Below, piece after piece: positions 4,463 through 58,123 of a stretch of DNA of 58,547 bases. A program made the translations under genes and the position numbers. Under the pieces are notes generated by a model. That model did no database searches. It was not told the DNA's origin and saw only the letters and a list, made by a program, of their open reading frames with translations. Source of the stretch: a phage. Within the stretch, counting starts at the first letter, position 1, and every line of letters begins with the position of its first letter. The stretch lies in the NCBI GenBank assembly GCA_027568095.1, contig GCA_027568095.1_4956.1. The stretch is one strand, 5' to 3'.

Positions 4463-4960
4463 AAATTTGTCTCCCATAAATTTTAAATTAGTTTCCCACA
4501 GATACCCACGGGTTGTCTACACGCCCTGTTTTACAGCTAATACGATGTTAGTATTAAGTTTATAACCTGTCATGGTTTATAAACACATAATCCCAACAAT
4601 TTCAAAGACTTGCATAAAAACATAGATTACAATAGGTATCTCCCAGACTTTTATTTTAGCTCTATTTACAGCTTACACTACTCTAGTATTATCTCTATCT
4701 TTCTATACTACTTCTTATTTATATCTATGTTTTCTATGTTATCTATAAAAAGATAATAAAAAGAATAAGATAGAGAGGGGTTGGTTAAAAAATAAACATG
4801 ACGAAATCTATACCAATCTATGATTTTGATACTATGACAGGATTAACTGTAACACTAATACTATCATAGTGTTCTATCTTAGTATTAGCAGTTTGCGAGC
4901 AATCCTATGATAGTCAGTCGTTCTACCATAGGACTAGCTGTAACACTATGACAGGATTAC

Positions 4961-5007: not shown

Positions 5008-5775
5008 ATGAAAAAGAATATTTTTAAAGAATTTGCTGATGCAATGGGTAGTTTACGCGAGGCTGTTGATTATCTTGCTAAACACGACGTTAAAATTTCA
5101 GTTGGTCGTTATAATGAATGGATGGCTGGCAAGCAGTACCCACTGGCTACCACGCTTAACGTCATCATGAAAAAACTTGGGTTACCGAATCTGGACCCGG
5201 TGATTGATGTTGGTGAGGTTGTTCTTAAACGCACAATACCAGTTACCGAACTGCGTCAGAAATTACCACACAGACGTTTTGCTAATAACTACTGGCAACG
5301 TGTCAGATACGTTGATTCACAGATCCTGGAAGCTGTTCACGGTCACGACGTGTGGACACGGTTTGAGGCGATGTGCGGTAATTTTGAATGTGCAAGATAC
5401 GTGTTACGCAGGAATTTAAACAAACACACAATTACTGACAGTTGGATTCAGAATGGTTTGCGCCGGGGCTGGATCCCGGAATGTGTAAACGTAATGGTCG
5501 ATTTGCTTGAAAAATACGAAGGCACTGGGACACCGTTTAACGTGATGGTTTGTGAACCACCTGTAGCACGAGTGGAACCACCTGTAGCACGAGTGGAAGC
5601 ACCTGTAGCACGAGTGGAAGCACCTGTAGCACGAGTGGAAGCACCTGTAGTCGATGTCAGCGATTTGAAGGAGAAAATCAGACTGTATGCGTTATCACAC
5701 AATCCTCATTGCGATGTAGATAATATGCCGGATGATGTTGTTTTGATGATGTATAAAGATATGATGGGCCAATGA
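5008..5775 (+). CDS. hypothetical protein with in-frame PVARVE tandem repeats
   Basis: Strong RBS; 21-bp repeat x about 4.6 encodes (E)PPVARVE units. Confidence 0.5.
   Translation: MKKNIFKEFADAMGSLREAVDYLAKHDVKISVGRYNEWMAGKQYPLATTLNVIMKKLGLPNLDPVIDVGEVVLKRTIPVTELRQKLPHRRFANNYWQRVRYVDSQILEAVHGHDVWTRFEAMCGNFECARYVLRRNLNKHTITDSWIQNGLRRGWIPECVNVMVDLLEKYEGTGTPFNVMVCEPPVARVEPPVARVEAPVARVEAPVARVEAPVVDVSDLKEKIRLYALSHNPHCDVDNMPDDVVLMMYKDMMGQ
5554..5655 (+). repeat. 21-bp tandem repeat (gaa[c/g]cacctgtagcacgagtg) x about 4.6, in-frame coding
   Basis: Direct inspection of 5554-5655. Confidence 0.8.
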
Positions 5776-7977: not shown

Positions 7978-8214
7978 TTAACGCACCTCGACATCAATCA
8001 TTAAATCTTCTGGTACTGTCACCACAACGCGGTCGTTTTCGCAAAATGGTGATAGCGGTTCCTCTTCCGGTTGTAAGCGAAGGGTAAGTGTTGCCCCGTG
8101 GTAATTGATATAACGCACCCAATACCAGTCGTTAAATACTTCAATCTTGTCACCCGGTTTAATATTACGGGCAACGGTTGGATTCATCAGTCGGATAGTC
8201 ATACTTTCACCCAT
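7978..8214 (-). CDS. hypothetical protein (74-78 aa)
   Basis: Two candidate ATGs (8214 or 8202); 8202 forms ATGA overlap with upstream stop. Confidence 0.45.
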   Translation of the reverse strand: MGESMTIRLMNPTVARNIKPGDKIEVFNDWYWVRYINYHGATLTLRLQPEEEPLSPFCENDRVVVTVPEDLMIDVEVR

Positions 8215-8423
8215 CCTTTACCACGGATACAACGAATCAGACCACGTTTTTTTAACGCTTGTAAACGGCGATCCAATACGCGAAATCCTTCATATTTAAC
8301 AGTTGCTAATTTTTCACATTCTTCACGAACATCACGAACAAAGATATTCATAAATTCTGTTGGGTGACCACCGATTTTATTTAAAATCAATTTGTCGAGT
8401 TTTTCATATTTGTTAGTTTTCAT
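8199..8423 (-). CDS. hypothetical protein (74 aa)
   Basis: GGCGGG RBS; operon context. Confidence 0.45.
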   Translation of the reverse strand: MKTNKYEKLDKLILNKIGGHPTEFMNIFVRDVREECEKLATVKYEGFRVLDRRLQALKKRGLIRCIRGKGWVKV

Positions 8424-8493
8424 AGTTACCCGCCTATTGATACAGTACGTACTTCTGGGTCATACGATGCTGAAAATTCGTCAGTAACATCTC

Positions 8494-8613
8494 TCACATA
8501 ACGAACGTAATTATTAAATTCACCCCCCCGTGATCATGGTATTTAATGATCACTGTTGCTTCTGGTGGCATTTTCTTTAATTGTTTAATCAACTCACGTA
8601 CTGTCACAGTCAT
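8494..8613 (-). CDS. small protein, possibly truncated at a C7/G7 homopolymer (8523-8529)
   Basis: ATGA overlap with upstream gene; with one extra G the frame would run to TAA at 8426-8428, abutting the next start. Confidence 0.3.
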   Translation of the reverse strand: MTVTVRELIKQLKKMPPEATVIIKYHDHGGVNLIITFVM

Positions 8614-8771
8614 TTCTTCTTACTCCCGGTTACTTTAGCAATCCAATAATTTTCATTAACGCTGGGAAAACTGTTATTGAACTTACACTGACGTTCTTCT
8701 TCTTTTGTCAACGGTTTAAATTTAGAACGACAGGTCAACGTACCGTAAATTGATGTTAAGTTGTCTGACAT
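8610..8771 (-). CDS. small protein (53 aa)
   Basis: GGAG RBS 7 nt upstream of ATG 8771. Confidence 0.4.
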   Translation of the reverse strand: MSDNLTSIYGTLTCRSKFKPLTKEEERQCKFNNSFPSVNENYWIAKVTGSKKK

Positions 8772-8947
8772 AAACTAGTCTCCTTTAGTGCGCAGGTGGT
8801 TTTTCCAGCGGTTTTGCGCCGCGCTGCGTTTATATTTACAAAGTAAAACGTCACCAGAATGTTTAAGTATTACTAACCATTTTCTATTACTGATTCGGAA
8901 TGGTCTATTCTTTTTAATAAATAAAAGTTTTGCCTTGCGGTTTTTCA

Positions 8948-9712
8948 TCACTGGTAATCCTTCAATGCTTTTAACGCTTCAAACTGTTCAGTCGTTAGTT
9001 CGATAAGAATTTTACCGTCTCCCCGAGGTGCCACAGACCATCCGCCACGGATTGCTTCCACTGCAGATCGTACCAGTTTAGCAGGCGGACGACGCGTGAC
9101 TACTGGTTCTTTATCACCTGCTTTAAACTGGCGAATGGCTGCTGATGCACTAATTTCACCGTTCTGAATACGACGTTTAAGTTCCAGTGGCATATCAAGA
9201 ATATTCAGTTGTTCGTAAACATGTTGGACGGTTTTACCAACCTGTGTAGCAATCTGCTCAACACTCATGCCATATGAACGGAAACGACCGTAAATAACAG
9301 CACGTTCAACAGGCGACCACGGTTTACCCTCGTTACCTTTTAACAGTGTCAGGGTCTGTTGCAGTTCGTCACCGGACGATTCAACAACGTCTACTGTCAG
9401 AATCGGCGTCCCGGCTTCAATAGCTGCTAACACGCCACGTAAACGATGCTCACCATCCTGAACATATGGAACACCGTCAACAACCTGTACCACGATGGGT
9501 GGAACGAAATCGCCGTTGGTATAAGCCTGACGAAAGTTTTCAATGTGTGCCAGTGCTGCTTCAGTTTCCCAGTAGTTGTCGGTAAACACACCGCGTGGGT
9601 TATGCCCTGGACGAATCTTGATAATACGCGGATCAATACGATACGCATTACCACGTTTTACATTGGTTTTATCGGTATCAGATAGCTTGCGAAGGGAGTT
9701 AATGTTAGCCAT
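8948..9712 (-). CDS. ParB-like nuclease domain protein with C-terminal HTH
   Basis: DGEHRLRGVLAA ParB/Srx-type motif; later SVEQIATQVGKTVQHVYEQL HTH-like. Confidence 0.55.
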   Translation of the reverse strand: MANINSLRKLSDTDKTNVKRGNAYRIDPRIIKIRPGHNPRGVFTDNYWETEAALAHIENFRQAYTNGDFVPPIVVQVVDGVPYVQDGEHRLRGVLAAIEAGTPILTVDVVESSGDELQQTLTLLKGNEGKPWSPVERAVIYGRFRSYGMSVEQIATQVGKTVQHVYEQLNILDMPLELKRRIQNGEISASAAIRQFKAGDKEPVVTRRPPAKLVRSAVEAIRGGWSVAPRGDGKILIELTTEQFEALKALKDYQ

Positions 9713-19710: not shown

Positions 19711-20610
19711 ATGGCACAGAAAGAATCTTTTGTAACTCCGGTTGGTCGTCTGGTTGGCGGTTCTTTTTTCGATATCAACACTCATGACCACGAAAATAAA
19801 CCGTTAGCACCTGAAAAACACAACTGGTGGGTTGGTCTGGCGTTTCCTAAAACAGCGGCGAACTGGTGGGAAGAACAAGGTGAACTGGGTGCGGTATTCC
19901 AGGCGATCATGCGAGCGGCTAACTCACACTATGTGAACGGCGAACCACAACAACCCACTTTCGCATGGAAAATTATTAATGGTGACGATCCGAAACATGC
20001 GAGTAAAACTGGTTATGCTGGTCACTGGGTAATTGGTTTCTCACGCAACGTGGCTATTGACGCGTGTCCGGTTTATAACGCAGCGTACCAGCTAGTTATT
20101 GATAAAAATCTGGCGAAAAAAGGTTATTATTACCGTATCAGCGGATCATCTGTTGCAAACGGTCGTACAGGTAATCAGGCTGGTGTGTATATCAACATGG
20201 AAATGGCGCAATTGCTTTATGCAGGTGAAGAAATCATTTCCGGTCCGGCTCCTGCTTCTGTGTTCGGTGCTGCTCCTGCAATGCCTGAAGGCGCACGTCC
20301 GATCGGCGTAACACCAGCGGCAGCACCTGTAGCAGCACCTGTAGCAGCGGCAGCACCTGTAGCAGCGCCTACACCAGCGGCAGCACCTGTAGCAGCGGCA
20401 GCACCTGTAGCAGCGCCTACACCAGCGGCAGCACCTGTAGCAGCGCCTACACCAGCGGCAGCACCTGTGAAGGTAATGACTGAAAAAGCAGGTGGTGCTA
20501 CTTACGAACAGTTTATTGCGCAAGGTTGGAACGATGAACAACTGATCGCTAATGGTTATATGGTAATGACCACCCCGGCCCCGAATTTTCTCAACGGTAA
20601 CGGTTACTGA
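19711..20610 (+). CDS. possible ssDNA-binding-like protein with PA-rich repeat linker and C-terminal FIAxGWND motif
   Basis: Follows the nuclease gene; (AAPVAAPTPA)n repeats then YEQFIAQGWNDEQLIANGY; SSB assignment is inference. Confidence 0.4.
   Translation: MAQKESFVTPVGRLVGGSFFDINTHDHENKPLAPEKHNWWVGLAFPKTAANWWEEQGELGAVFQAIMRAANSHYVNGEPQQPTFAWKIINGDDPKHASKTGYAGHWVIGFSRNVAIDACPVYNAAYQLVIDKNLAKKGYYYRISGSSVANGRTGNQAGVYINMEMAQLLYAGEEIISGPAPASVFGAAPAMPEGARPIGVTPAAAPVAAPVAAAAPVAAPTPAAAPVAAAAPVAAPTPAAAPVAAPTPAAAPVKVMTEKAGGATYEQFIAQGWNDEQLIANGYMVMTTPAPNFLNGNGY
20311..20468 (+). repeat. imperfect 27-30-bp tandem repeats (core gcagcacctgtagcagc), in-frame
   Basis: Direct inspection; core occurs about 7 times. 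Confidence 0.7.
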
Positions 20611-43642: not shown

Positions 43643-43941
43643 GAATTATTTTACGTATAGATTCATGGGAAGTATGCGACTCCCTATACCTTTTAAACCT
43701 CTCCTACTTGCAGCAACTTTTACTACTTATACTACTCTTCTGTTTATCTATGTTTATTATGTTTTCTATAAAAAGAATAAGATAGAGAGGGGTTGGTTAA
43801 AAAATAAACATGACGAAATCTATGAATTTATGATCTACTAATACAGATTCAGTATTAGCTGTAACTCAAAATCATGAAACCCATGTAAAACCATGTACAG
43901 TTAGTACACGTTCTGTATTAGCTGTATCTTTAAAATAATTC

Positions 43942-53824: not shown

Positions 53825-54100
53825 ATGGAATACATGTACATTGCTTTTTCATTTCTGTTAATGATTGTTGTCGTTATTACAACTGAGAAAAAAGAACAAG
53901 GGGTGATAGGGTTAGCAGTTGCTCTGATTCGTGTTCTTTCAATCATGTTGCTGGTAACCAGTTTTTCAATTGCTTTTGACATCGTGGAATTACAAAGCGA
54001 TTATTACGGTTTTGTGAAAATTCAACATCAACTAACATACGCCGTCATATTCGGTTTAGGTTCTGTTAGCCTCGCTGTTCTTTCATCTTTCAGACGTTGA
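53825..54100 (+). CDS. small membrane protein (about 3 TM)
   Basis: Three hydrophobic segments. Confidence 0.45.
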   Translation: MEYMYIAFSFLLMIVVVITTEKKEQGVIGLAVALIRVLSIMLLVTSFSIAFDIVELQSDYYGFVKIQHQLTYAVIFGLGSVSLAVLSSFRR

Positions 54101-54125
54101 AAAAAGCCCCGGAACTGTCCGGGGC
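54100..54125 (-). terminator. intrinsic terminator (GCCCCGGA-CAGT-TCCGGGGC + T6) ending the TerL-portal accessory operon
   Basis: Perfect 8-bp stem; T-run on minus strand. Confidence 0.55.
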
Positions 54126-54312
54126 AAAGTCGATCAGTAAAATACAAAAGGCCTAAACGTGAACGCGGAAAACTGTAACGGTACTATGAACGGACTGGTA
54201 AACCCTCTGAAAACGGCCTGAGTATGTGCAATCTGTGACTGAAGAAGACCAAATTGCGTAGCAGGACTTCCCAGACAACACGATGTTCTACAACACATAA
54301 TAACCCCCTTTT

Positions 54313-54567
54313 TTACGCTTTTTCTGACTCTTTAAGACCTAAAACGGCAATTACTTTTACAGCGATACGTTGCGCCAGGTCTAACTGTTGCTGGCTCAAT
54401 TTCCCGGTAGCCATCACTGCCATGATCCCACTCATTGAACCCAACGCTTTAAAATCGTTAAATGCCGACTTCATGATCACTTCTTGACTGTGACCTTCGT
54501 CTACGATCACGTGTGCGCGTAACCCCAGACTTTCGACTACTTTGTCTACCCCTTCATTCTTCGTCAT
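54313..54567 (-). CDS. hypothetical protein (84 aa)
   Basis: ORF overlapping upstream gene end. Confidence 0.4.
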   Translation of the reverse strand: MTKNEGVDKVVESLGLRAHVIVDEGHSQEVIMKSAFNDFKALGSMSGIMAVMATGKLSQQQLDLAQRIAVKVIAVLGLKESEKA

Positions 54568-55072
54568 CTTCGTTTACCTTATTTTTGGCTACTTTTGGTT
54601 GCTCACGAGGATTCAGAATTTCTTTATCAATCATCGGGGGCCACGGGCTGATATTTTCACGGGTTTCCACGGGTTCCGGTTCTGTACCTAAAAACTTACT
54701 GACAAATTCACCAGCAAAGTGAGAAGTATCGCTGACATAAACATGCATCCTGTCTAAATCAGCCTGACTAATTGAATTAGGTGCAATATTAATTTTAAAT
54801 TGATGGAAACCAACATACATCACATTAATCGGTCGTTCGATTGTCCCCGGCGTTGGGGGGATTACACCCATAATCCAACAGTAATGAACGCGACCATCTC
54901 CCATCGGTTCGCAACCCGCATTAAGCCAGCTTACTTTCTGATGGGGAAACATCGTTGTTGAGTCAGTGGCATCCCGACGTAATGACCACTCCACACCACC
55001 AATGTTAATAGTGCTTCGCGGTTTCATACCGTTAAATTGAGTGACGCCCATACCTGAGTTAATGTTCTGCAT
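54554..55072 (-). CDS. hypothetical protein (172 aa)
   Basis: AGGAAA RBS 5 nt upstream of ATG. Confidence 0.45.
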   Translation of the reverse strand: MQNINSGMGVTQFNGMKPRSTINIGGVEWSLRRDATDSTTMFPHQKVSWLNAGCEPMGDGRVHYCWIMGVIPPTPGTIERPINVMYVGFHQFKINIAPNSISQADLDRMHVYVSDTSHFAGEFVSKFLGTEPEPVETRENISPWPPMIDKEILNPREQPKVAKNKVNEDDEE

Positions 55073-55088
55073 GTCGGTTTCCTGTTAG

Positions 55089-55445
55089 TTACATCTTTTT
55101 AAGCGCGTGGATACAGGCTGCAGCCAGATCCGTTAGCTCTTTTTTAATACCAGACGTCGAACCTTCGGTTTTTTCTTCCATCAGTTCGCGATATTCCATT
55201 TCAACAATGGACATCATCCCGCCGGGCTTATCGTGGTACGACGCCCAAGTCGAAGGAGGGTTATCCATACGTGCTTTAACATGGGCCATAGCTGAACCAT
55301 GTTCGCCAGCATAGCTATCATGATGAAATACTCCCATTGCTGGATGATGCCCGTGGTGATAATGATGGTGATGATGAATCTCTACATCTTCCTCTTCATC
55401 GTCATCATCGTCTTTCTTAATAACGTAATACGGTTTGTAATGCAT
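55089..55445 (-). CDS. histidine-rich acidic protein (118 aa; DDDDDEEEDVEIHHHHHYHHGHHP)
   Basis: AGGAGA RBS 7 nt upstream of ATG 55445 (track ORF begins at an upstream TTG). Confidence 0.5.
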   Translation of the reverse strand: MHYKPYYVIKKDDDDDEEEDVEIHHHHHYHHGHHPAMGVFHHDSYAGEHGSAMAHVKARMDNPPSTWASYHDKPGGMMSIVEMEYRELMEEKTEGSTSGIKKELTDLAAACIHALKKM

Positions 55446-55495
55446 ACTCTTATCTCCTGTTAAAGCGCCCCGGAAAGAGGCGCTCAATTAACTAA

Positions 55496-56191
55496 TTAGC
55501 AGCAACCAGTTGGAGGAGTCGGAGGAGTAGGCAGTTTGAAGTTAACCAACTGTTCGACCTGGTTAATTTTGCAATTCAGTTGTGCAGTTTGCGCCAACTG
55601 AGAATTAGCAAAACGAGATTCCTGAAGCTGAGATTTCAGGTCACAAATCAGAACAGCCTGAGACTGTGCGAACTGGTCACGGATCAGTGCACGAGTTGCT
55701 TCCGCCTGACGTTCGATATTCAGGTTAGTTTCGCAGCAACACTTCTCAGCCGCTAATTGTGCCTGGAAAGAACGAGTCAGTGCCGCAGTTTCAGACGCAC
55801 AGATCGCATTGGTCACAGTGTTAGTACCATTCTGAATTTGTGTATTCAGACCTGCAAAACCTTGTACAGATGCCAGCAGGTTTTGTGTGTTCTGTTGAGT
55901 GATACCGTTAAAAGTGGAAGCTGCAGCGCGTTCAACGGTCAGGTTTGTACCATTCTGACCCTGAATGGTCTGAAGAGTACCGTTATTGATGGCTTGCAGA
56001 ATAGCGTTGGTATCTACAGAGGCTTGAACTTCTACAGGACCACCAAAGTTACCGCGACCACTCCAACCGTTACCGCCACCCCAACCGTTACCGAACCAGG
56101 AACCGATAAGACCACCGATACCACCTCCAAGTGCAGCCGCGCCAGCTTCACCGCCGAAACCGCCAGTGGGAACTAAAGTCATGTCAGACAT
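55496..56191 (-). CDS. glycine-zipper / N,Q,T-rich protein with C-terminal coiled coil and terminal Cys pair
   Basis: AGGAG RBS 7 nt upstream; N-terminus GGFGGEAGAAALGGGIGGLIGSWFGNGWGGGNGW; C-terminus ...PTPPTPPTGCC. Confidence 0.5.
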   Translation of the reverse strand: MSDMTLVPTGGFGGEAGAAALGGGIGGLIGSWFGNGWGGGNGWSGRGNFGGPVEVQASVDTNAILQAINNGTLQTIQGQNGTNLTVERAAASTFNGITQQNTQNLLASVQGFAGLNTQIQNGTNTVTNAICASETAALTRSFQAQLAAEKCCCETNLNIERQAEATRALIRDQFAQSQAVLICDLKSQLQESRFANSQLAQTAQLNCKINQVEQLVNFKLPTPPTPPTGCC

Positions 56192-56315
56192 GTTGAAACT
56201 CCTGTGAGAGAATGTTAATTAACTGTAACCGATTGGTTACTTACAGGAGTATAGACCTGTTACATTAATCTAACAGGTAATTTACAAACATTTATAATGT
56301 AATTTGTCAAGAATT

Positions 56316-56345
56316 AAAAAGAAAACGGGCGGGAATAATCCCGCC
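56316..56345 (-). terminator. intrinsic terminator after large terminase gene
   Basis: GGCGGG-ATTATT-CCCGCC hairpin followed by U-rich tract on minus strand. Confidence 0.5.
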
Positions 56346-56353
56346 ACACTGTT

Positions 56354-58123
56354 TTAAAAAATGTCACCATATTCAGGAGTACCAACAGGATTCACACCAC
56401 CAGTAAATGGTTCTTCGACAAATTCAGTGCGTTTTGGTGATAGTGCAATAACCGCAGCATCGAAAAAGTTTGGCGATTTACTCCCATTTGGTTTCTTGTC
56501 AATCACAATCTTCCCGGCACCGTTACTTGTATACGTTGGCTGGCTTAACTCAGCTTCTAACCGTTGTGCATTTTCCAGTGACGGATCAATCAGAATGATT
56601 TCGTCTGGATCCTGTGGTTGACCTTCCACATACCATTTATAAATACGCTGACAGCGCAGACGTAACGCCCATGATGCCTGCGCTTTATAATTTGAAAAAT
56701 AATCTTTGTTTGATTTACGGTCTTTGTCACCAGGTTTTGTACCACCGATAATATCACCACCCGGATCCACAACTTTTCCATTCGGTAACCACGGGCGCAC
56801 ACGGAAGCGTAAAGTATCTTTACGGTCGTTTGCCGCTACTTTAACGCCTGTACCAACACCGTTAACTTCGTACCAATATTCATCAACACCCAGCATATTA
56901 GCCATCGTCAACATTCCTGGTGCAGCCAGTTCAGCGCCCCTGTGGTCAAGCTGTAGATGTGTCAGGAATACACCGTGAGCAATTACCAGTGCACTTGCAT
57001 CTTCACCACCGTCTGCGGCATCCTGTCCGGCGATACGTTGACCTGTTGGTGTAAGTAGTCCGTTAGCTTTGCGCCATTCTGTGTCACGGAAAGCGTCAAA
57101 AGCAGCACGTACCCATTCAGCTTTAATCAGTACACCCTGAACAGCAGCGGCATAGTCGCGATCGACTTCCTGTGCGAAAATATGCTGTAAACCTTTTTCA
57201 GCGAACGATTGTTTTTCTCGCTTATACCATTCGTCATCTTTAGCCGGGTGATCACGCCAGTCAAGAACCATTACACGCAATTTACCACGGGGTAATTTCT
57301 TGCCCGGTTCCCATTCCAGACCAGCTTTACGGTTGCGATAAAAAACGTTACCAACACCGTTAACCGAACTGATATCAATACGAACGTTGGTGTTAGCTGA
57401 CAACGACGCTTCAATCAGTTCAGGACGATCTACGTGTGCTGCCTCGTCGAGAAAATAGACAGATTTACGACCACCACGACCGATGTTATCGCCAGCTTCA
57501 CCAGTAATTGTTGCACCGTTTTCAGGGTTTATACATTTCATGTAAACCAGATGGTCTTTTTCACGCAGACCGACCGGGCGTAATTCCGGTGGTAATGCGC
57601 GGATAATCTGGCGAATCTTTTCAAAAATACTATCCGGGTCGCCCAGTTTATCAACAAGCTGCTCTTTACGTGATCCCCAGCCAACTGAAGAACCGGGACG
57701 ATACAGCCACGCCCACACGGACAAACCACAGGCTACCCAGGTTGCGCCATAATCTCGCGATTTTTCCCAAAGTCCCTTCTCTTTGTCTTCAAGCGCTTCA
57801 TAAACAAACTGAACCATGTCGATCTGACGTTCGAAAAGGCAGAAAGGCATGTTAGGCGGGTATTCAGTACCAACGTTACGCGGGTCATAAGTAAACGCCC
57901 AGTCGAGAATGAATGCCACCGGGTTTGTTTCGTAATACTTTTTCAGTACTGGGACAATTGCCCGATCCGTGCGCATACGATTTAACAGGTTAATGCGGTC
58001 AATGTAACACTGTTTGTAATCCGGGCGTGGCTGACCTTTTCGCCAGATACGTTCGTCGTTTGCGTAGGCATCACGCCAGCGCGGGTAATTATGAATATTT
58101 CCAGTAAACTTATTCATGATCAT
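56354..58123 (-). CDS. terL: terminase large subunit
   Basis: 589 aa; YFLDEAAH Walker B-like segment; position upstream of portal. Confidence 0.6.
   Translation of the reverse strand: MIMNKFTGNIHNYPRWRDAYANDERIWRKGQPRPDYKQCYIDRINLLNRMRTDRAIVPVLKKYYETNPVAFILDWAFTYDPRNVGTEYPPNMPFCLFERQIDMVQFVYEALEDKEKGLWEKSRDYGATWVACGLSVWAWLYRPGSSVGWGSRKEQLVDKLGDPDSIFEKIRQIIRALPPELRPVGLREKDHLVYMKCINPENGATITGEAGDNIGRGGRKSVYFLDEAAHVDRPELIEASLSANTNVRIDISSVNGVGNVFYRNRKAGLEWEPGKKLPRGKLRVMVLDWRDHPAKDDEWYKREKQSFAEKGLQHIFAQEVDRDYAAAVQGVLIKAEWVRAAFDAFRDTEWRKANGLLTPTGQRIAGQDAADGGEDASALVIAHGVFLTHLQLDHRGAELAAPGMLTMANMLGVDEYWYEVNGVGTGVKVAANDRKDTLRFRVRPWLPNGKVVDPGGDIIGGTKPGDKDRKSNKDYFSNYKAQASWALRLRCQRIYKWYVEGQPQDPDEIILIDPSLENAQRLEAELSQPTYTSNGAGKIVIDKKPNGSKSPNFFDAAVIALSPKRTEFVEEPFTGGVNPVGTPEYGDIF

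What the first reader, a model, noticed from the sequence alone, without database searches (positions are those of the whole stretch)
54313..56353. Accessory operon between large terminase and portal: glycine-zipper protein, histidine-rich acidic protein and two unknowns
TerL ends with its own terminator (56316-56345), then a four-gene minus-strand operon follows before another strong terminator (54100-54125). Gene 1 (55496..56191) has a Gly-rich N-terminus with GxxxG-type glycine zippers and aromatic residues (bacteriocin- or membrane-insertion-like), an N/Q/T-rich middle, a coiled-coil segment and a C-terminal PTPPTPPTGCC tail. Gene 2 (55089..55445) is a poly-acidic, His-rich protein (DDDDDEEEDVEIHHHHHYHHGHHP), suggestive of metal binding. 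Genes 3-4 are unknown. TerL and portal are normally adjacent, so this is an inserted accessory module. The leader (56221-56285) also has two perfect palindromes (GTAACC-GATT-GGTTAC; CCTGTTA-N8-TAACAGG) that look like operator sites.
Basis: partly seen in the sequence, partly recalled or inferred. Interest (0 to 1): 0.6.

Follow-up and report, generated by a model that had tools for sequence, protein, structure and literature searches.

The report
Mobile five-gene phage accessory operon
The genes between the terminase and portal genes form a self-contained, dispensable five-gene operon of unknown function that has moved between unrelated lytic phages of enterobacteria; its main product is a glycine-zipper protein with one very long helix that matches nothing characterised.

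Summary
The window is a 9NA/Sasha-like siphovirus. After the TerL terminator come a promoter region, g1 (231 aa), a weak hairpin, g2, g3, g4, a missed Cys-rich g5 (54 aa), and a strong terminator.

- **Mobile cassette.** g1-g2-g3-g4 keep strict order in more than 60 phage loci from at least six lineages. The cassette lies after lateral-tail-fibre genes, after TerL, or alone. It carries its own -10-like box and a hairpin at the predicted mRNA 5' end.
- **Restricted to phage records.** It is absent from 5,426 complete E. coli genomes.
- **Dispensable.** PDP46 and 9NA carry independent deletions, and g1 is split in several isolates.
- **g1.** A disordered glycine-zipper N-terminus, one predicted helix (residues 61-219), an invariant CCC motif and a Pro-rich tail.
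- **g2.** The conserved part weakly resembles MazG/AF0060; the His-rich tract is variable.
- **g3-g5.** g3 has no known fold. g4 and g5 match nothing.

Best guess, at low confidence: an infected-cell, membrane-associated accessory complex for phage competition or lysis timing, not a virion part or fibre chaperone. Function is untested.

The parts
56354..58123 (-). Large terminase subunit (TerL), upstream neighbour; not part of the cassette
   Evidence: PHROG phrog_2/5989 terminase large subunit and weak Pfam Terminase_6N. Annotated TerL in relatives.
56328..56345 (-). Intrinsic terminator after TerL (the hairpin also reads as a terminator on the + strand)
   Evidence: 7-bp stem with 6 GC pairs, followed by a T-run. 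One end of the PDP46 deletion lies inside it, at GGGAT.
56296..56322 (-). Copy of the phage's own repeated promoter element (TTTTTAATTCTTGACAAATTACA; -35 TTGACA at 56305-56310), with a poor -10 at the canonical spacing
   Evidence: About 12 copies of TAAAATAATTCTTGAC(R)nATTRCA occur in the window, mostly ahead of small-gene clusters. This is the copy upstream of g1. The simple sigma-70 scan did not call it.
56256..56277 (-). Palindrome 1, CCTGTTA-N8-TAACAGG; not conserved
   Evidence: Read directly. The arms are broken in PJ16, AVIO78A and KarinMuster.
56248..56253 (-). -10-like hexamer TATACT carried by the cassette
   Evidence: A TAnAnT hexamer lies 6-7 nt upstream of the G of the GTRRC arm in 15 leaders read by eye, spanning Nonanavirus, both Queuovirinae genera, Drexlerviridae, eiAU and Yersinia X1. 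No transcription start site was mapped.
56225..56240 (-). Conserved leader hairpin GTAACC-AATC-GGTTAC, probably at the 5' end of the operon mRNA
   Evidence: A hairpin of at least 5 bp lies 19-41 nt before the ATG in 39 of 39 unique leaders, against 65% of shuffles, with 20 distinct arm pairs. In a 16-sequence alignment 96% of cells pair, A-U changes to G-C compensatorily, and slid controls pair 21-58%.
55496..56191 (-). g1: 231-aa protein with a glycine-zipper N-terminus, one long helix, a CCC motif and a PTPPTPPTGCC tail
   Evidence: phrog_9288, unknown function. 204 homologous clusters and 131 50%-identity representatives. AF2 predicts residues 1-60 as disordered and 61-219 as a single helix, with pLDDT up to 92. 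There is no Pfam, NCBIfam, PADLOC or PDB match.
55464..55484 (-). Weak hairpin between g1 and g2 (AGCGCC-N9-GGCGCT followed by TTT), a possible attenuator
   Evidence: Read. Annotated as a rho-independent terminator in AVIO78A. The scan did not call it.
55089..55445 (-). g2: 118-aa protein with a variable acidic/His-rich N-terminal part and a conserved C-terminal helical domain (weakly MazG/AF0060-like)
   Evidence: phrog_9157. Alignments A3 and A7 give P64 and W67 invariant, and E84, E103 and C111 invariant or nearly so. The best PDB hit is 2p06 AF_0060, E 0.01 and 0.095. Pfam PRA-PH or MazG hits 6 of 14 relatives weakly.
54554..55072 (-). g3: 172-aa alpha/beta protein with an acidic disordered tail and no known fold
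54313..54567 (-). g4: 84-aa helical protein whose start overlaps the end of g3
   Evidence: phrog_7239. Conserved in the same position in 65 ORFs. There is no informative PDB or Pfam match.
   Evidence: phrog_25697, E 1.9e-7. 93-100% identical in Nonanavirus relatives and 40-45% in Seuratvirus (KurtStettler gp28). A GGGGG RBS precedes it.
54106..54125 (-). Intrinsic terminator ending the operon
   Evidence: 8-bp stem with 7 GC pairs, then TTTTTT.

Best explanation
**Shown.** This is an autonomous, horizontally mobile, non-essential accessory operon found in phage genomes and viral contigs and not in the bacterial chromosomes searched. It has its own promoter region, a hairpin at the predicted 5' end of the mRNA, five genes and a terminator.

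**Inferred mechanism, low confidence.**
- g1 is made in excess over g2-g5, because a weak hairpin after g1 attenuates readthrough.
- g1 associates with the host cytoplasmic membrane through its N-terminal glycine-zipper segment. Its roughly 160-residue helix oligomerises into a stalk of about 24 nm, cross-braced at the invariant CCC.
- The conserved Arg after the hydrophobic segment and the acidic N-flank favour an N-out/C-in topology. The stalk and its Cys-rich tail would then face the cytoplasm.
- There it would bind the signal-peptide-less partners: g2 (MazG-like helical domain with a His/acidic tail), g3 (novel alpha/beta protein), g4 and g5.
- The complex would act inside the infected cell, not in the virion. 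Its benefit would matter in nature but not in pure lab culture. The most plausible roles are exclusion or handicapping of co-infecting phages, or tuning of lysis timing.

No step of this mechanism has been tested experimentally.
For: **Autonomy and mobility.**
- g1-g2-g3-g4 keep strict order in 61 of 124 fetched loci, and more are recognisable by eye.
- The cassette occurs in Nonanavirus/Sashavirus, Seuratvirus, Nonagvirus, Drexlerviridae, Eiauvirus and the Yersinia phages P400 and X1.
- Its neighbours differ: TerL, a lateral tail fibre, head genes, or replication genes.
- g1 DNA is 79% identical to KurtStettler, an otherwise unrelated Seuratvirus.
- A -10-like box plus a 5' hairpin travel with the cassette.

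**Dispensability.**
- PDP46 lacks window 54430-56334, joined at a GGGAT microhomology.
- 9NA lacks about 55001-56055.
- g1 is split in AVIO78A, S113, JakobBernoulli, Fulano1, SeppeHuegi and Skure.

**Not found in host genomes.**
- There is no match in 5,426 complete E. coli genomes.
- A scan with one motif from distant g1 homologues found only one MAG fragment in 185,579 species-representative genomes.

**Not needed for canonical lysis or for a lateral fibre.**
- KarinMuster, a close relative, has its own holin, endolysin and Rz/Rz1.
- Nonanavirus has a single tailspike-type receptor-binding protein (PMC11990801).

**Membrane association.**
- The (G/A/S)xxxGxxxG zipper is present in 81 of 82 family members.
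- The N-flank has mean net charge -1.4 to -1.8 and the C-flank +0.4.
- Distant homologues have plainly hydrophobic cores such as WWIVIFLIFAMFGW.

**Early-type expression in this phage.** g1 is preceded by a copy of the promoter element that otherwise heads small-gene clusters.

**Soluble partners.** No TM-grade segment was found in g2-g4.
Against: - The hydrophobic segment is marginal for classical membrane insertion. The summed Hessa dGapp is +2 to +6 kcal/mol, and none of 82 sequences falls below zero. g1 could instead be soluble with a low-complexity head.
- In five of seven contexts the cassette lies next to, and in the same direction as, late structural genes. In T5-like phages g1 alone follows the L-shaped fibre gene. 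That would suit a virion fibre.
- Conserved Cys clusters (CCC, terminal GCC/GCCGC, Cys-rich g5) are more typical of proteins cross-linked outside the cell.
- The phage-consensus promoter copy has a poor -10, and no transcription start is mapped.
- No homologue has any experimental record.
- Exclusion functions are usually single proteins and also occur in prophages, where this cassette was not found.
Confidence: 0.35

Rival explanations
1. g1 is a dispensable virion appendage (a whisker, head fibre or fibre-associated stalk). It would be a trimeric helical fibre cross-linked by the CCC ring and the terminal Cys after release. g2-g5 would be assembly factors or minor partners.
For: - g1 is predicted as a long helix of about 24 nm.
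- Cys clusters are invariant.
- A Cys-rich small partner recurs: g5 here, and a 130-aa Cys-rich ORF next to distant homologues.
- The cassette lies directly after S74-bearing lateral fibre genes in Drexlerviridae, Seuratvirus and T5-like phages, and after tail genes in eiAU.
- In KurtStettler, g1 is fused in frame to a fibre protein.
- Loss in laboratory stocks is classic for non-essential fibres.
- An attenuator after g1 would suit the stoichiometry of a structural protein and its chaperones.
Against: - A hydrophobic glycine-zipper N-terminus is unusual for a fibre.
- There is no similarity to any fibre, decoration or whisker protein by sequence or fold.
- In Nonanavirus, P400 and X1 the cassette is not next to tail genes.
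- In this phage it carries the promoter type of the small-gene clusters.
- Seven virion protein bands were reported for phage TLS, and none was assigned to a g1-like protein (PMC11447400). This is weak evidence: only SDS-PAGE was used, and I did not check that TLS itself carries the cassette.
Confidence: 0.22
2. g1 is a membrane-permeabilising protein (an auxiliary holin, viroporin or microcin-like toxin) whose zipper forms pores. g2-g5 would restrain or time it, giving a lysis-inhibition-like or toxin/immunity module.
For: - Glycine zippers are typical of channel-forming peptides. This rests on general knowledge (VacA, pinholin, microcin V), not on a test here.
- g1 has the overall layout of a class III holin: about 220 aa, one N-terminal hydrophobic segment and a large C-terminal domain.
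- From my own knowledge, the T4 holin gene t also follows the tail-fibre genes.
- Recurrent loss in picked plaques would fit rapid-lysis-type mutants.
- The cassette was found only in phage records.
Against: - There is no homology to any holin, antiholin or bacteriocin family.
- The N-terminal MSDMTLxPTGG does not fit the double-glycine leader consensus, and no exporter or C39 peptidase is present.
- KarinMuster, a close relative, already has a full lysis cassette.
- An early-type promoter would be dangerous for a pore former.
Confidence: 0.15
3. g1 is a lateral tail fibre chaperone or a sugar-binding protein, as annotated in some GenBank records (PJ16, KurtStettler, PaulSarasin, JakobBernoulli).
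For: GenBank product names and position downstream of lateral fibre genes.
Against: - In KurtStettler gp24 the Peptidase_S74 chaperone domain is residues 208-259. The g1-like part is a separate C-terminal fusion beginning at about residue 293.
- g1 itself has no S74, lectin or carbohydrate-binding match.
- S74 fibres fold with their own intramolecular chaperone.
- The cassette occurs where no lateral fibre gene is adjacent (X1, P400) and in Nonanavirus, which has a single tailspike-type receptor-binding protein.
Confidence: 0.03
4. The operon is a metal-handling module built around the His-rich g2 and the Cys-rich g1 and g5 (metal sequestration or delivery).
For: - His runs recur in g2 of several lineages.
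- Invariant Cys are present in g1, g2 (C111) and g3 (C65).
- The MazG-like acidic residues could bind Mg2+.
Against: - The His tract varies in length and is absent in some members, for example the 81-aa and 99-aa forms.
- There is no match to any metallochaperone or metal transporter family.
- This reading leaves the long g1 helix and g3/g4 unexplained.
Confidence: 0.07

Closest known systems
Phage morons and accessory gene cassettes (for example the lambda and HK97 morons; T5 llp next to its receptor-binding gene)
   Same: It has its own promoter and terminator and lies between core modules. It is present or absent among close relatives, is exchanged between unrelated phages, and is dispensable for plaque formation.
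   Different: It has five co-transcribed genes rather than one. It is found in phage genomes and viral contigs but not in bacterial chromosomes, so it is not a lysogenic-conversion function. No product resembles any known moron product.
All-alpha NTP pyrophosphohydrolases (MazG / HisE PRA-PH / AF0060-like, PDB 2p06), compared with g2
   Same: The best and only recurring remote hit. It aligns over the whole conserved ~70-residue region, including the P..W turn, an E-x-x-E-like pair (E84, E87) and E103-x-x-D106.
   Different: Scores are far below family thresholds. The window protein itself has no Pfam hit, and none of 113 relatives carries a precomputed Pfam domain. The domain is shorter than a full MazG four-helix unit and carries a His/acidic disordered N-terminal extension.
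Bitopic coiled-coil membrane proteins of phages: phi29 p16.7, lambda Rz i-spanin, T4 holin T (comparison from my own knowledge)
   Same: The layout of g1: a short N-terminal tail, one hydrophobic segment, then a long helical domain with conserved Cys.
   Different: There is no sequence or profile similarity. The hydrophobic segment is a Gly-rich zipper of marginal hydrophobicity. KarinMuster, a close relative, has its own holin and spanins. No DNA-binding or o-spanin-binding end domain is evident.
Glycine-zipper membrane-active peptides (microcin V/colicin V, VacA N-terminus, Cdz bacteriocins) (comparison from my own knowledge)
   Same: Repeated GxxxG in an Ala/Gly/Leu/Ile segment followed by aromatic residues.
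   Different: g1 is 231 aa with a 160-residue helix. It has no double-glycine leader consensus, and no exporter or immunity gene is recognisable.
5'-terminal stabilising stem-loops of E. coli mRNAs (the ompA type), compared with the leader hairpin
   Same: A short GC-containing hairpin predicted to start at or next to +1, conserved with compensatory changes and a variable loop.
   Different: The transcription start is not mapped, and a palindromic protein-binding site cannot be excluded from sequence alone.

Membership tests
Moron-like autonomous accessory cassette | Own promoter and terminator flanking the genes | tested here: met
   Terminators lie at 56328-56345 (upstream) and 54106-54125 (downstream). 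A promoter-consensus copy and a conserved -10-like box with hairpin precede g1. No transcript was mapped.
Moron-like autonomous accessory cassette | Variable presence among close relatives and different genomic neighbourhoods | tested here: met
   PDP46 and 9NA carry deletions. Seven different contexts were found.
Peptidase_S74 intramolecular tail-fibre chaperone (the basis of the 'lateral tail fiber chaperone' annotation) | S74 domain (PF13884) in the protein | tested here: not met
   g1 has no Pfam hit. In KurtStettler gp24 the S74 domain maps to residues 208-259, outside the g1-like part.
MazG / all-alpha NTP pyrophosphohydrolase (g2) | Profile match at or above the family threshold | tested here: not met
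   The window g2 matches no Pfam family. Six of 14 relatives give weak PRA-PH or MazG hits (best E 3.7e-4). PDB 2p06 scores E 0.01 and 0.095.
MazG / all-alpha NTP pyrophosphohydrolase (g2) | Conserved acidic EXXE...EXXD metal-binding residues on paired helices | tested here: inconclusive
   E84 and E103 are invariant or nearly so. E87 and D106 are mostly conserved, with D/E substitutions. No structure or activity is available.
Class II microcin / double-glycine bacteriocin (g1) | Double-glycine leader with consensus hydrophobic positions, plus a dedicated C39-ABC exporter and an immunity gene | tested here: not met
   The N-terminus MSDMTLVPTGG has Pro at -4 and Thr at -7. No ABC or C39 protein is in the operon. 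The mature size would be about 220 aa.
Spanin (i-spanin or u-spanin) (g1) | Required lysis component with an o-spanin partner or lipobox; restricted to Gram-negative hosts | tested here: not met
   KarinMuster, a close relative, has separate Rz-like and o-spanin genes. g1 is deleted in viable phages and has no lipobox. Distant homologues occur in low-GC contigs next to an AgrB-like gene.
Holin (class III, T4 T-like) (g1) | Holin family profile match; the sole or essential holin of the phage | tested here: not met
   There is no Pfam or PHROG lysis hit. A separate holin is annotated in KarinMuster, and g1 is dispensable.
Virion structural protein (head, portal vertex or fibre) | Homology to known structural families | tested here: not met
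   PHROGs places all five proteins in 'unknown function' families. PDB and BFVD searches give nothing.
Virion structural protein (head, portal vertex or fibre) | Presence in purified particles | not testable with these tools
   I found no virion proteome of a cassette-bearing phage in the literature I could read.
Histidine-rich metal-binding proteins (g2) | A conserved His-rich tract | tested here: inconclusive
   His-rich stretches recur, but they vary in length and position and are absent from some members.

The most novel reading that the evidence does not exclude
g1-g4 could be an undescribed infection-stage machine of lytic phages. It would be a membrane-tethered, Cys-braced helical stalk about 24 nm long, or alternatively an intermediate-filament-like head-rod-tail polymer, with three dedicated soluble partners. 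It appears conserved from enterobacterial siphoviruses to phages on low-GC viral contigs. It might sense or block superinfection, set lysis timing, or organise the infected cell by a mechanism unrelated to known Sie, Rex, lysis-inhibition or cytoskeletal systems.
Probability: 0.3. Interest if true: 0.75.

Novelty: new variant of a known kind. Interest (0 to 1): 0.5.

Why it matters
The cassette is one of the more widespread blocks of 'dark matter' in well-used E. coli and Salmonella phage collections, including BASEL isolates in Drexlerviridae and Queuovirinae and 9NA-like phages. It has four to five co-inherited proteins with no known relatives, its own regulatory signals, and clear evidence of transfer between phage families and of repeated loss in culture.

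That combination usually marks functions that matter in nature, such as competition, host envelope variation or persistence, and that are invisible in standard assays. Natural deletion mutants (PDP46, 9NA) and tractable hosts make it directly testable.

The work also corrects misleading annotations ('lateral tail fiber chaperone', 'sugar-binding protein', and 'TerL' for g3 homologues) that are spreading through databases.

Tried and rejected
**Family and structure searches that gave nothing useful.**
- Pfam, NCBIfam and PADLOC scans of all five proteins. The PADLOC GajA hit for g4 (E 0.004, 58 residues) was judged to be chance.
- Profile searches against PDB sequences for g1, g3 and g4. The g4 hits to de novo TIM barrels are a short repeated-motif artefact.
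- Foldseek of the g1 model gave only vimentin at E 4.4, which is not evidence.
- AFDB50 was unavailable.

**Attempts to strengthen the g2-MazG link.**
- A deeper g2 profile did not strengthen it.

**Literature.**
- Searches found no study of these proteins.
- The key 9NA paper (PMC6819911) and the PY100 virion proteome paper (PMC2223727) are not held.

**Other dead ends.**
- An alignment of very distant g1 homologues was too divergent for a locus search.
- Hydrophobic residues in the g1 helix showed no 3.5-residue peak, so 'canonical coiled coil' was dropped.
- An anti-Shine-Dalgarno pairing seen in the window leader was not seen in the one other lineage I inspected (Seuratvirus L012), and I dropped it.
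- Spanin, holin, fibre chaperone and classical bacteriocin were considered and rejected as memberships (see the membership tests).
Full report
**What the window is.** The 58,547-bp window is a complete or nearly complete genome of a 9NA/Sasha-like siphovirus (Nonanavirus/Sashavirus). The region 54000-56400 is 92-93.5% identical to Sashavirus 536P12, AVIO78A, PJ16 and KarinMuster (Bas82), and 89.5% identical to Sasha. The g1 protein occurs verbatim in a 58,547-bp contig filed under Escherichia albertii.

**Check of the observation.**
- TerL (56354-58123, minus strand) ends in a GC-rich hairpin with a T-run at 56328-56345.
- Then come g1 (55496-56191), g2 (55089-55445), g3 (54554-55072) and g4 (54313-54567, overlapping the end of g3).
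- A strong terminator lies at 54106-54125.
It has a GGGGG ribosome-binding site, hits phrog_25697, and is conserved in all Nonanavirus relatives and, at 40-45% identity, in Seuratvirus.
- A weak hairpin at 55464-55484 separates g1 from g2. AVIO78A's authors annotate it as a terminator. It would lower expression of g2-g5 relative to g1.

**It is a conserved, mobile cassette.**
- The decisive result came from relatives. In the Seuratvirus KurtStettler and the Drexlerviridae phages PaulSarasin and damhaus, proteins of the same sizes and order follow the lateral tail fibre gene. Their identity to the window proteins is 61-88%.
- A scan of viral contigs, with local tblastn and HMM searches, showed the order g1-g2-g3-g4 in virtually every close locus and in 61 of all 124 fetched loci.
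- In more distant GC-rich contigs, g2- and g3-like ORFs still follow g1. For example, in L054 the motif 'EFVNKLFGYDPQPERERENW' corresponds to g3's 'EFVSKFLGTEPEPVETRENISPW'.
- The neighbourhoods differ widely:
  - after TerL in Nonanavirus;
  - after an S74-bearing lateral fibre in Drexlerviridae, Seuratvirus and T5-like Epseptimavirus, where only g1 is present;
  - after tail genes in Edwardsiella phage eiAU;
  - as an isolated unit between head genes and small genes in Yersinia phage P400;
  - between small genes and dam/ssb in Yersinia phage X1.
- g1 DNA is 79% identical between this phage and KurtStettler, whose genomes are otherwise unrelated. This indicates fairly recent horizontal transfer.
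- The cassette was not found in any of 5,426 complete E. coli genomes. A motif scan of 185,579 species-representative genomes, using one pattern from distant g1 homologues, found only one MAG fragment. It is therefore not a prophage conversion module.

**It is dispensable.**
- PDP46, whose flanks are 94-98% identical to the window, lacks window 54430-56334. The junction is a GGGAT microhomology between the TerL terminator and g4. This removes the promoter, g1, g2, g3 and half of g4.
- The laboratory phage 9NA lacks about 55001-56055. It retains a 62-aa g1 stump, the C-terminal 116 aa of g3, and intact g4 and g5.
- g1 is split into two ORFs in AVIO78A, S113, JakobBernoulli, Fulano1, SeppeHuegi and Skure.
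- In KurtStettler a deletion has fused g1, minus its first ~15 residues, to the end of an S74 fibre protein. That fusion explains the 'lateral tail fiber chaperone' label.
- Either the gene is neutral or costly in culture, or its Gly-codon runs are mutation-prone. In either case it is not core morphogenesis.

**Regulatory signals.**
- The window contains about 12 copies of a promoter-like element, TAAAATAATTCTTGAC(R)nATTRCA. Most head clusters of small genes.
- One copy (-35 at 56305-56310) sits between the TerL terminator and g1. Its -10 is poor at the canonical spacing.
- Further downstream, a -10-like TATACT (56248-56253) lies 7 nt before the hairpin GTAACC-AATC-GGTTAC (56225-56240).
- This pair is the cassette's own signature. 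In 15 leaders read by eye, from Nonanavirus, both Queuovirinae genera, Drexlerviridae, eiAU and Yersinia X1, a TAnAnT hexamer lies 6-7 nt upstream of the G of the GTRRC arm.
- All 39 unique leaders have a hairpin of at least 5 bp lying 19-41 nt before the ATG. The same is true of 65% of shuffles, and there are 20 different arm sequences.
- In a 16-sequence alignment, 96% of cells pair, against 21-58% when the partner is slid. Two pairs switch between A-U and G-C.
- The loop length varies from 5 to 7 nt in that alignment. Together with the position at the predicted +1, this fits a 5'-terminal mRNA-stabilising stem-loop better than an operator. Sequence alone cannot exclude a palindromic binding site.

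**The proteins: g1.**
- g1 (phrog_9288) has 204 homologous 90%-identity clusters and 131 representatives at the 50% level.
- Conserved features are:
  - the N-terminus MSDMTLxPTGG;
  - a Gly/Ala/Leu/Ile segment with a perfect GxxxGxxxGxxxG zipper, followed by SWFGNGWGG;
  - a Q/N/T-rich region containing QGFAGLNT;
  - an invariant CCC followed by ETNLNIERQ;
  - LICDLK;
  - the tail KLPTPPTPP, ending in GCC, GCCGC or no Cys.
- AlphaFold2 with 42 sequences gives residues 1-60 as disordered and a single helix from 61 to 219. pLDDT is 77-92 for residues 120-210 and 50-70 for residues 60-120.
- Hydrophobic residues show no 3.5-residue periodicity, so 'canonical coiled coil' is not established.
- Distant homologues (phrog_16490) keep the same plan, with an obviously hydrophobic core (WWIVIFLIFAMFGW) and Cys-rich tails (…CNPYQSYNYTGCNGGCNCGSF). 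They occur in low-GC contigs beside an AgrB-like gene.
- By a Hessa-type sum, the best 19-residue window is +2 to +6 kcal/mol in all 82 sequences. The segment is therefore a marginal transmembrane helix and looks more like a membrane-active or self-associating zipper.
- Flanking charges are -1.4 to -1.8 on the N side and +0.4 on the C side, with a conserved Arg. This would favour an N-out/C-in topology.

**The proteins: g2 to g5.**
- g2 (phrog_9157): the acidic/His-rich N-terminal part varies between lineages. The conserved part is the C-terminal ~65 residues (P64, W67, E84, E103, L107, AAAC111).
  - Its only recurring remote match is the all-alpha NTP-pyrophosphatase fold. PDB 2p06 (AF_0060) scores E 0.01 and 0.095, and Pfam PRA-PH or MazG hits 6 of 14 relatives weakly.
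  - None of 113 relatives has a precomputed Pfam domain.
  - I treat this as a lead, not a membership.
- g4 and g5 match nothing.

**What it probably does.**
- Shown: an autonomous, mobile, dispensable operon found in phage records and not in host genomes. Its major product is a zipper-plus-long-helix protein.
- Inferred: g1 associates with the cytoplasmic membrane and oligomerises into a stalk of about 24 nm (159 residues at 1.5 Å each). The soluble g2-g5 bind to that stalk. The complex acts in the infected cell.
- Points in favour:
  - the hydrophobic zipper;
  - the lack of signal peptides on the partners;
  - the early-type promoter copy;
  - independence from any lateral fibre, since Nonanavirus has a single tailspike-type receptor-binding protein (PMC11990801);
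  - a complete separate lysis cassette in the close relative KarinMuster;
  - loss in culture.
- The role I find most plausible is competition with co-infecting phages or control of lysis timing. I give the whole model about 0.35.
- The main rival (0.22) is a dispensable virion fibre with assembly factors. It is favoured by frequent adjacency to fibre and tail genes, by the Cys clusters and by the stoichiometry signal.
- A pore-forming or lysis-timing toxin (0.15) and a metal-handling module (0.07) are possible.
- The annotated 'fibre chaperone / sugar-binding' function is essentially excluded (0.03).

**Comparison with what is known, and verdict.**
- In kind, this is a moron-like accessory cassette. 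In content it resembles nothing characterised.
- All five families are already catalogued as 'unknown function' in PHROGs, so the genes are not new to databases. As far as the accessible literature shows, their linkage, mobility, regulatory signature, dispensability and restriction to phage records have not been described.
- I rate it a new variant of a known kind, of moderate interest (0.5). The details needed correction: gene number, which part of g2 matters, which palindrome matters, and what the baseline synteny is.

Noticed in passing
window + strand 1586, 17660, 17723, 43937, 48645, 50429, 52651, 58189; - strand 56315, 43647, 12357, 9780: About 12 copies of a phage-specific promoter-like element, TAAAATAATTCTTGAC(R)nATTRCA followed about 17 nt later by TAnnnT. 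Most lie upstream of clusters of small ORFs. They look like the early promoter set of 9NA-like phages.
   Followed up: partly
window 4756-4811 and 43768-43823 (with flanking 4713-4753 / 43736-43776 at 85%): A perfect 56-nt direct repeat 39 kb apart. It includes an RBS-like GAGAGGGG and an ATG, as if two genes share the same leader and start.
   Followed up: no
window 20285-20498 and 5542-5667: Tandem in-frame repeats with periods of 12/18/30 nt and 21 nt, rich in GCAGCACCTGTAGCA. They presumably encode Ala/Gly/Thr-rich repeats in large genes that I did not characterise.
   Followed up: no
window 53825-54100 (+): A 91-aa ORF convergent on the cassette terminator encodes an obviously hydrophobic protein with several membrane-spanning-like segments. 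The Solent record lists a 'putative integral membrane protein' somewhere in this region, but I did not check which ORF carries that label.
   Followed up: no
L127 (phage PDP46) 3921-3928, corresponding to window 54430/56334: A clean 1.9-kb deletion of the cassette at a GGGAT microhomology. It leaves a 46-aa chimeric ORF made of the g4 C-terminus. This is a natural knockout usable as a control.
   Followed up: yes
L001 (KurtStettler, Bas22) 8002-9534: gp24 is an in-frame fusion of an S74-chaperone-bearing fibre protein (S74 at residues 208-259) to a g1 homologue lacking its first ~15 residues. This is the origin of the misleading 'lateral tail fiber chaperone' annotation.
   Followed up: yes
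L077 2841-6946 and L095 2723-7073 (IMG/VR low-GC contigs): Distant g1 homologues sit in a conserved block with four other ORFs. These are an AgrB-like membrane protein (Pfam AgrB, E 1.5e-6), a 130-aa Cys-rich protein starting with a CX3CX2C motif, a 182-aa protein that looked g2-like by eye but was not detected by the g2 profile, and a 120-aa protein with a Cys...His...Asp pattern suggestive of a papain-like peptidase. All are PHROG 'unknown function'.
   Followed up: partly
GenBank records Salmonella phage 36 (KR296690), JLBYU41 (OK272479), herni (NC_049823): Homologues of g3 are annotated as 'TerL' or 'putative TerL protein'. This is apparently an annotation error.
   Followed up: no
window 56241-56253 versus 56201-56209: The sequence CTCCTGT just upstream of the leader hairpin is complementary to the g1 Shine-Dalgarno region ACAGGAG. 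Transcripts reading through from TerL could therefore mask the g1 ribosome-binding site, while transcripts starting at the hairpin would not. I did not see this pairing in the one other lineage I inspected (Seuratvirus L012).
   Followed up: partly
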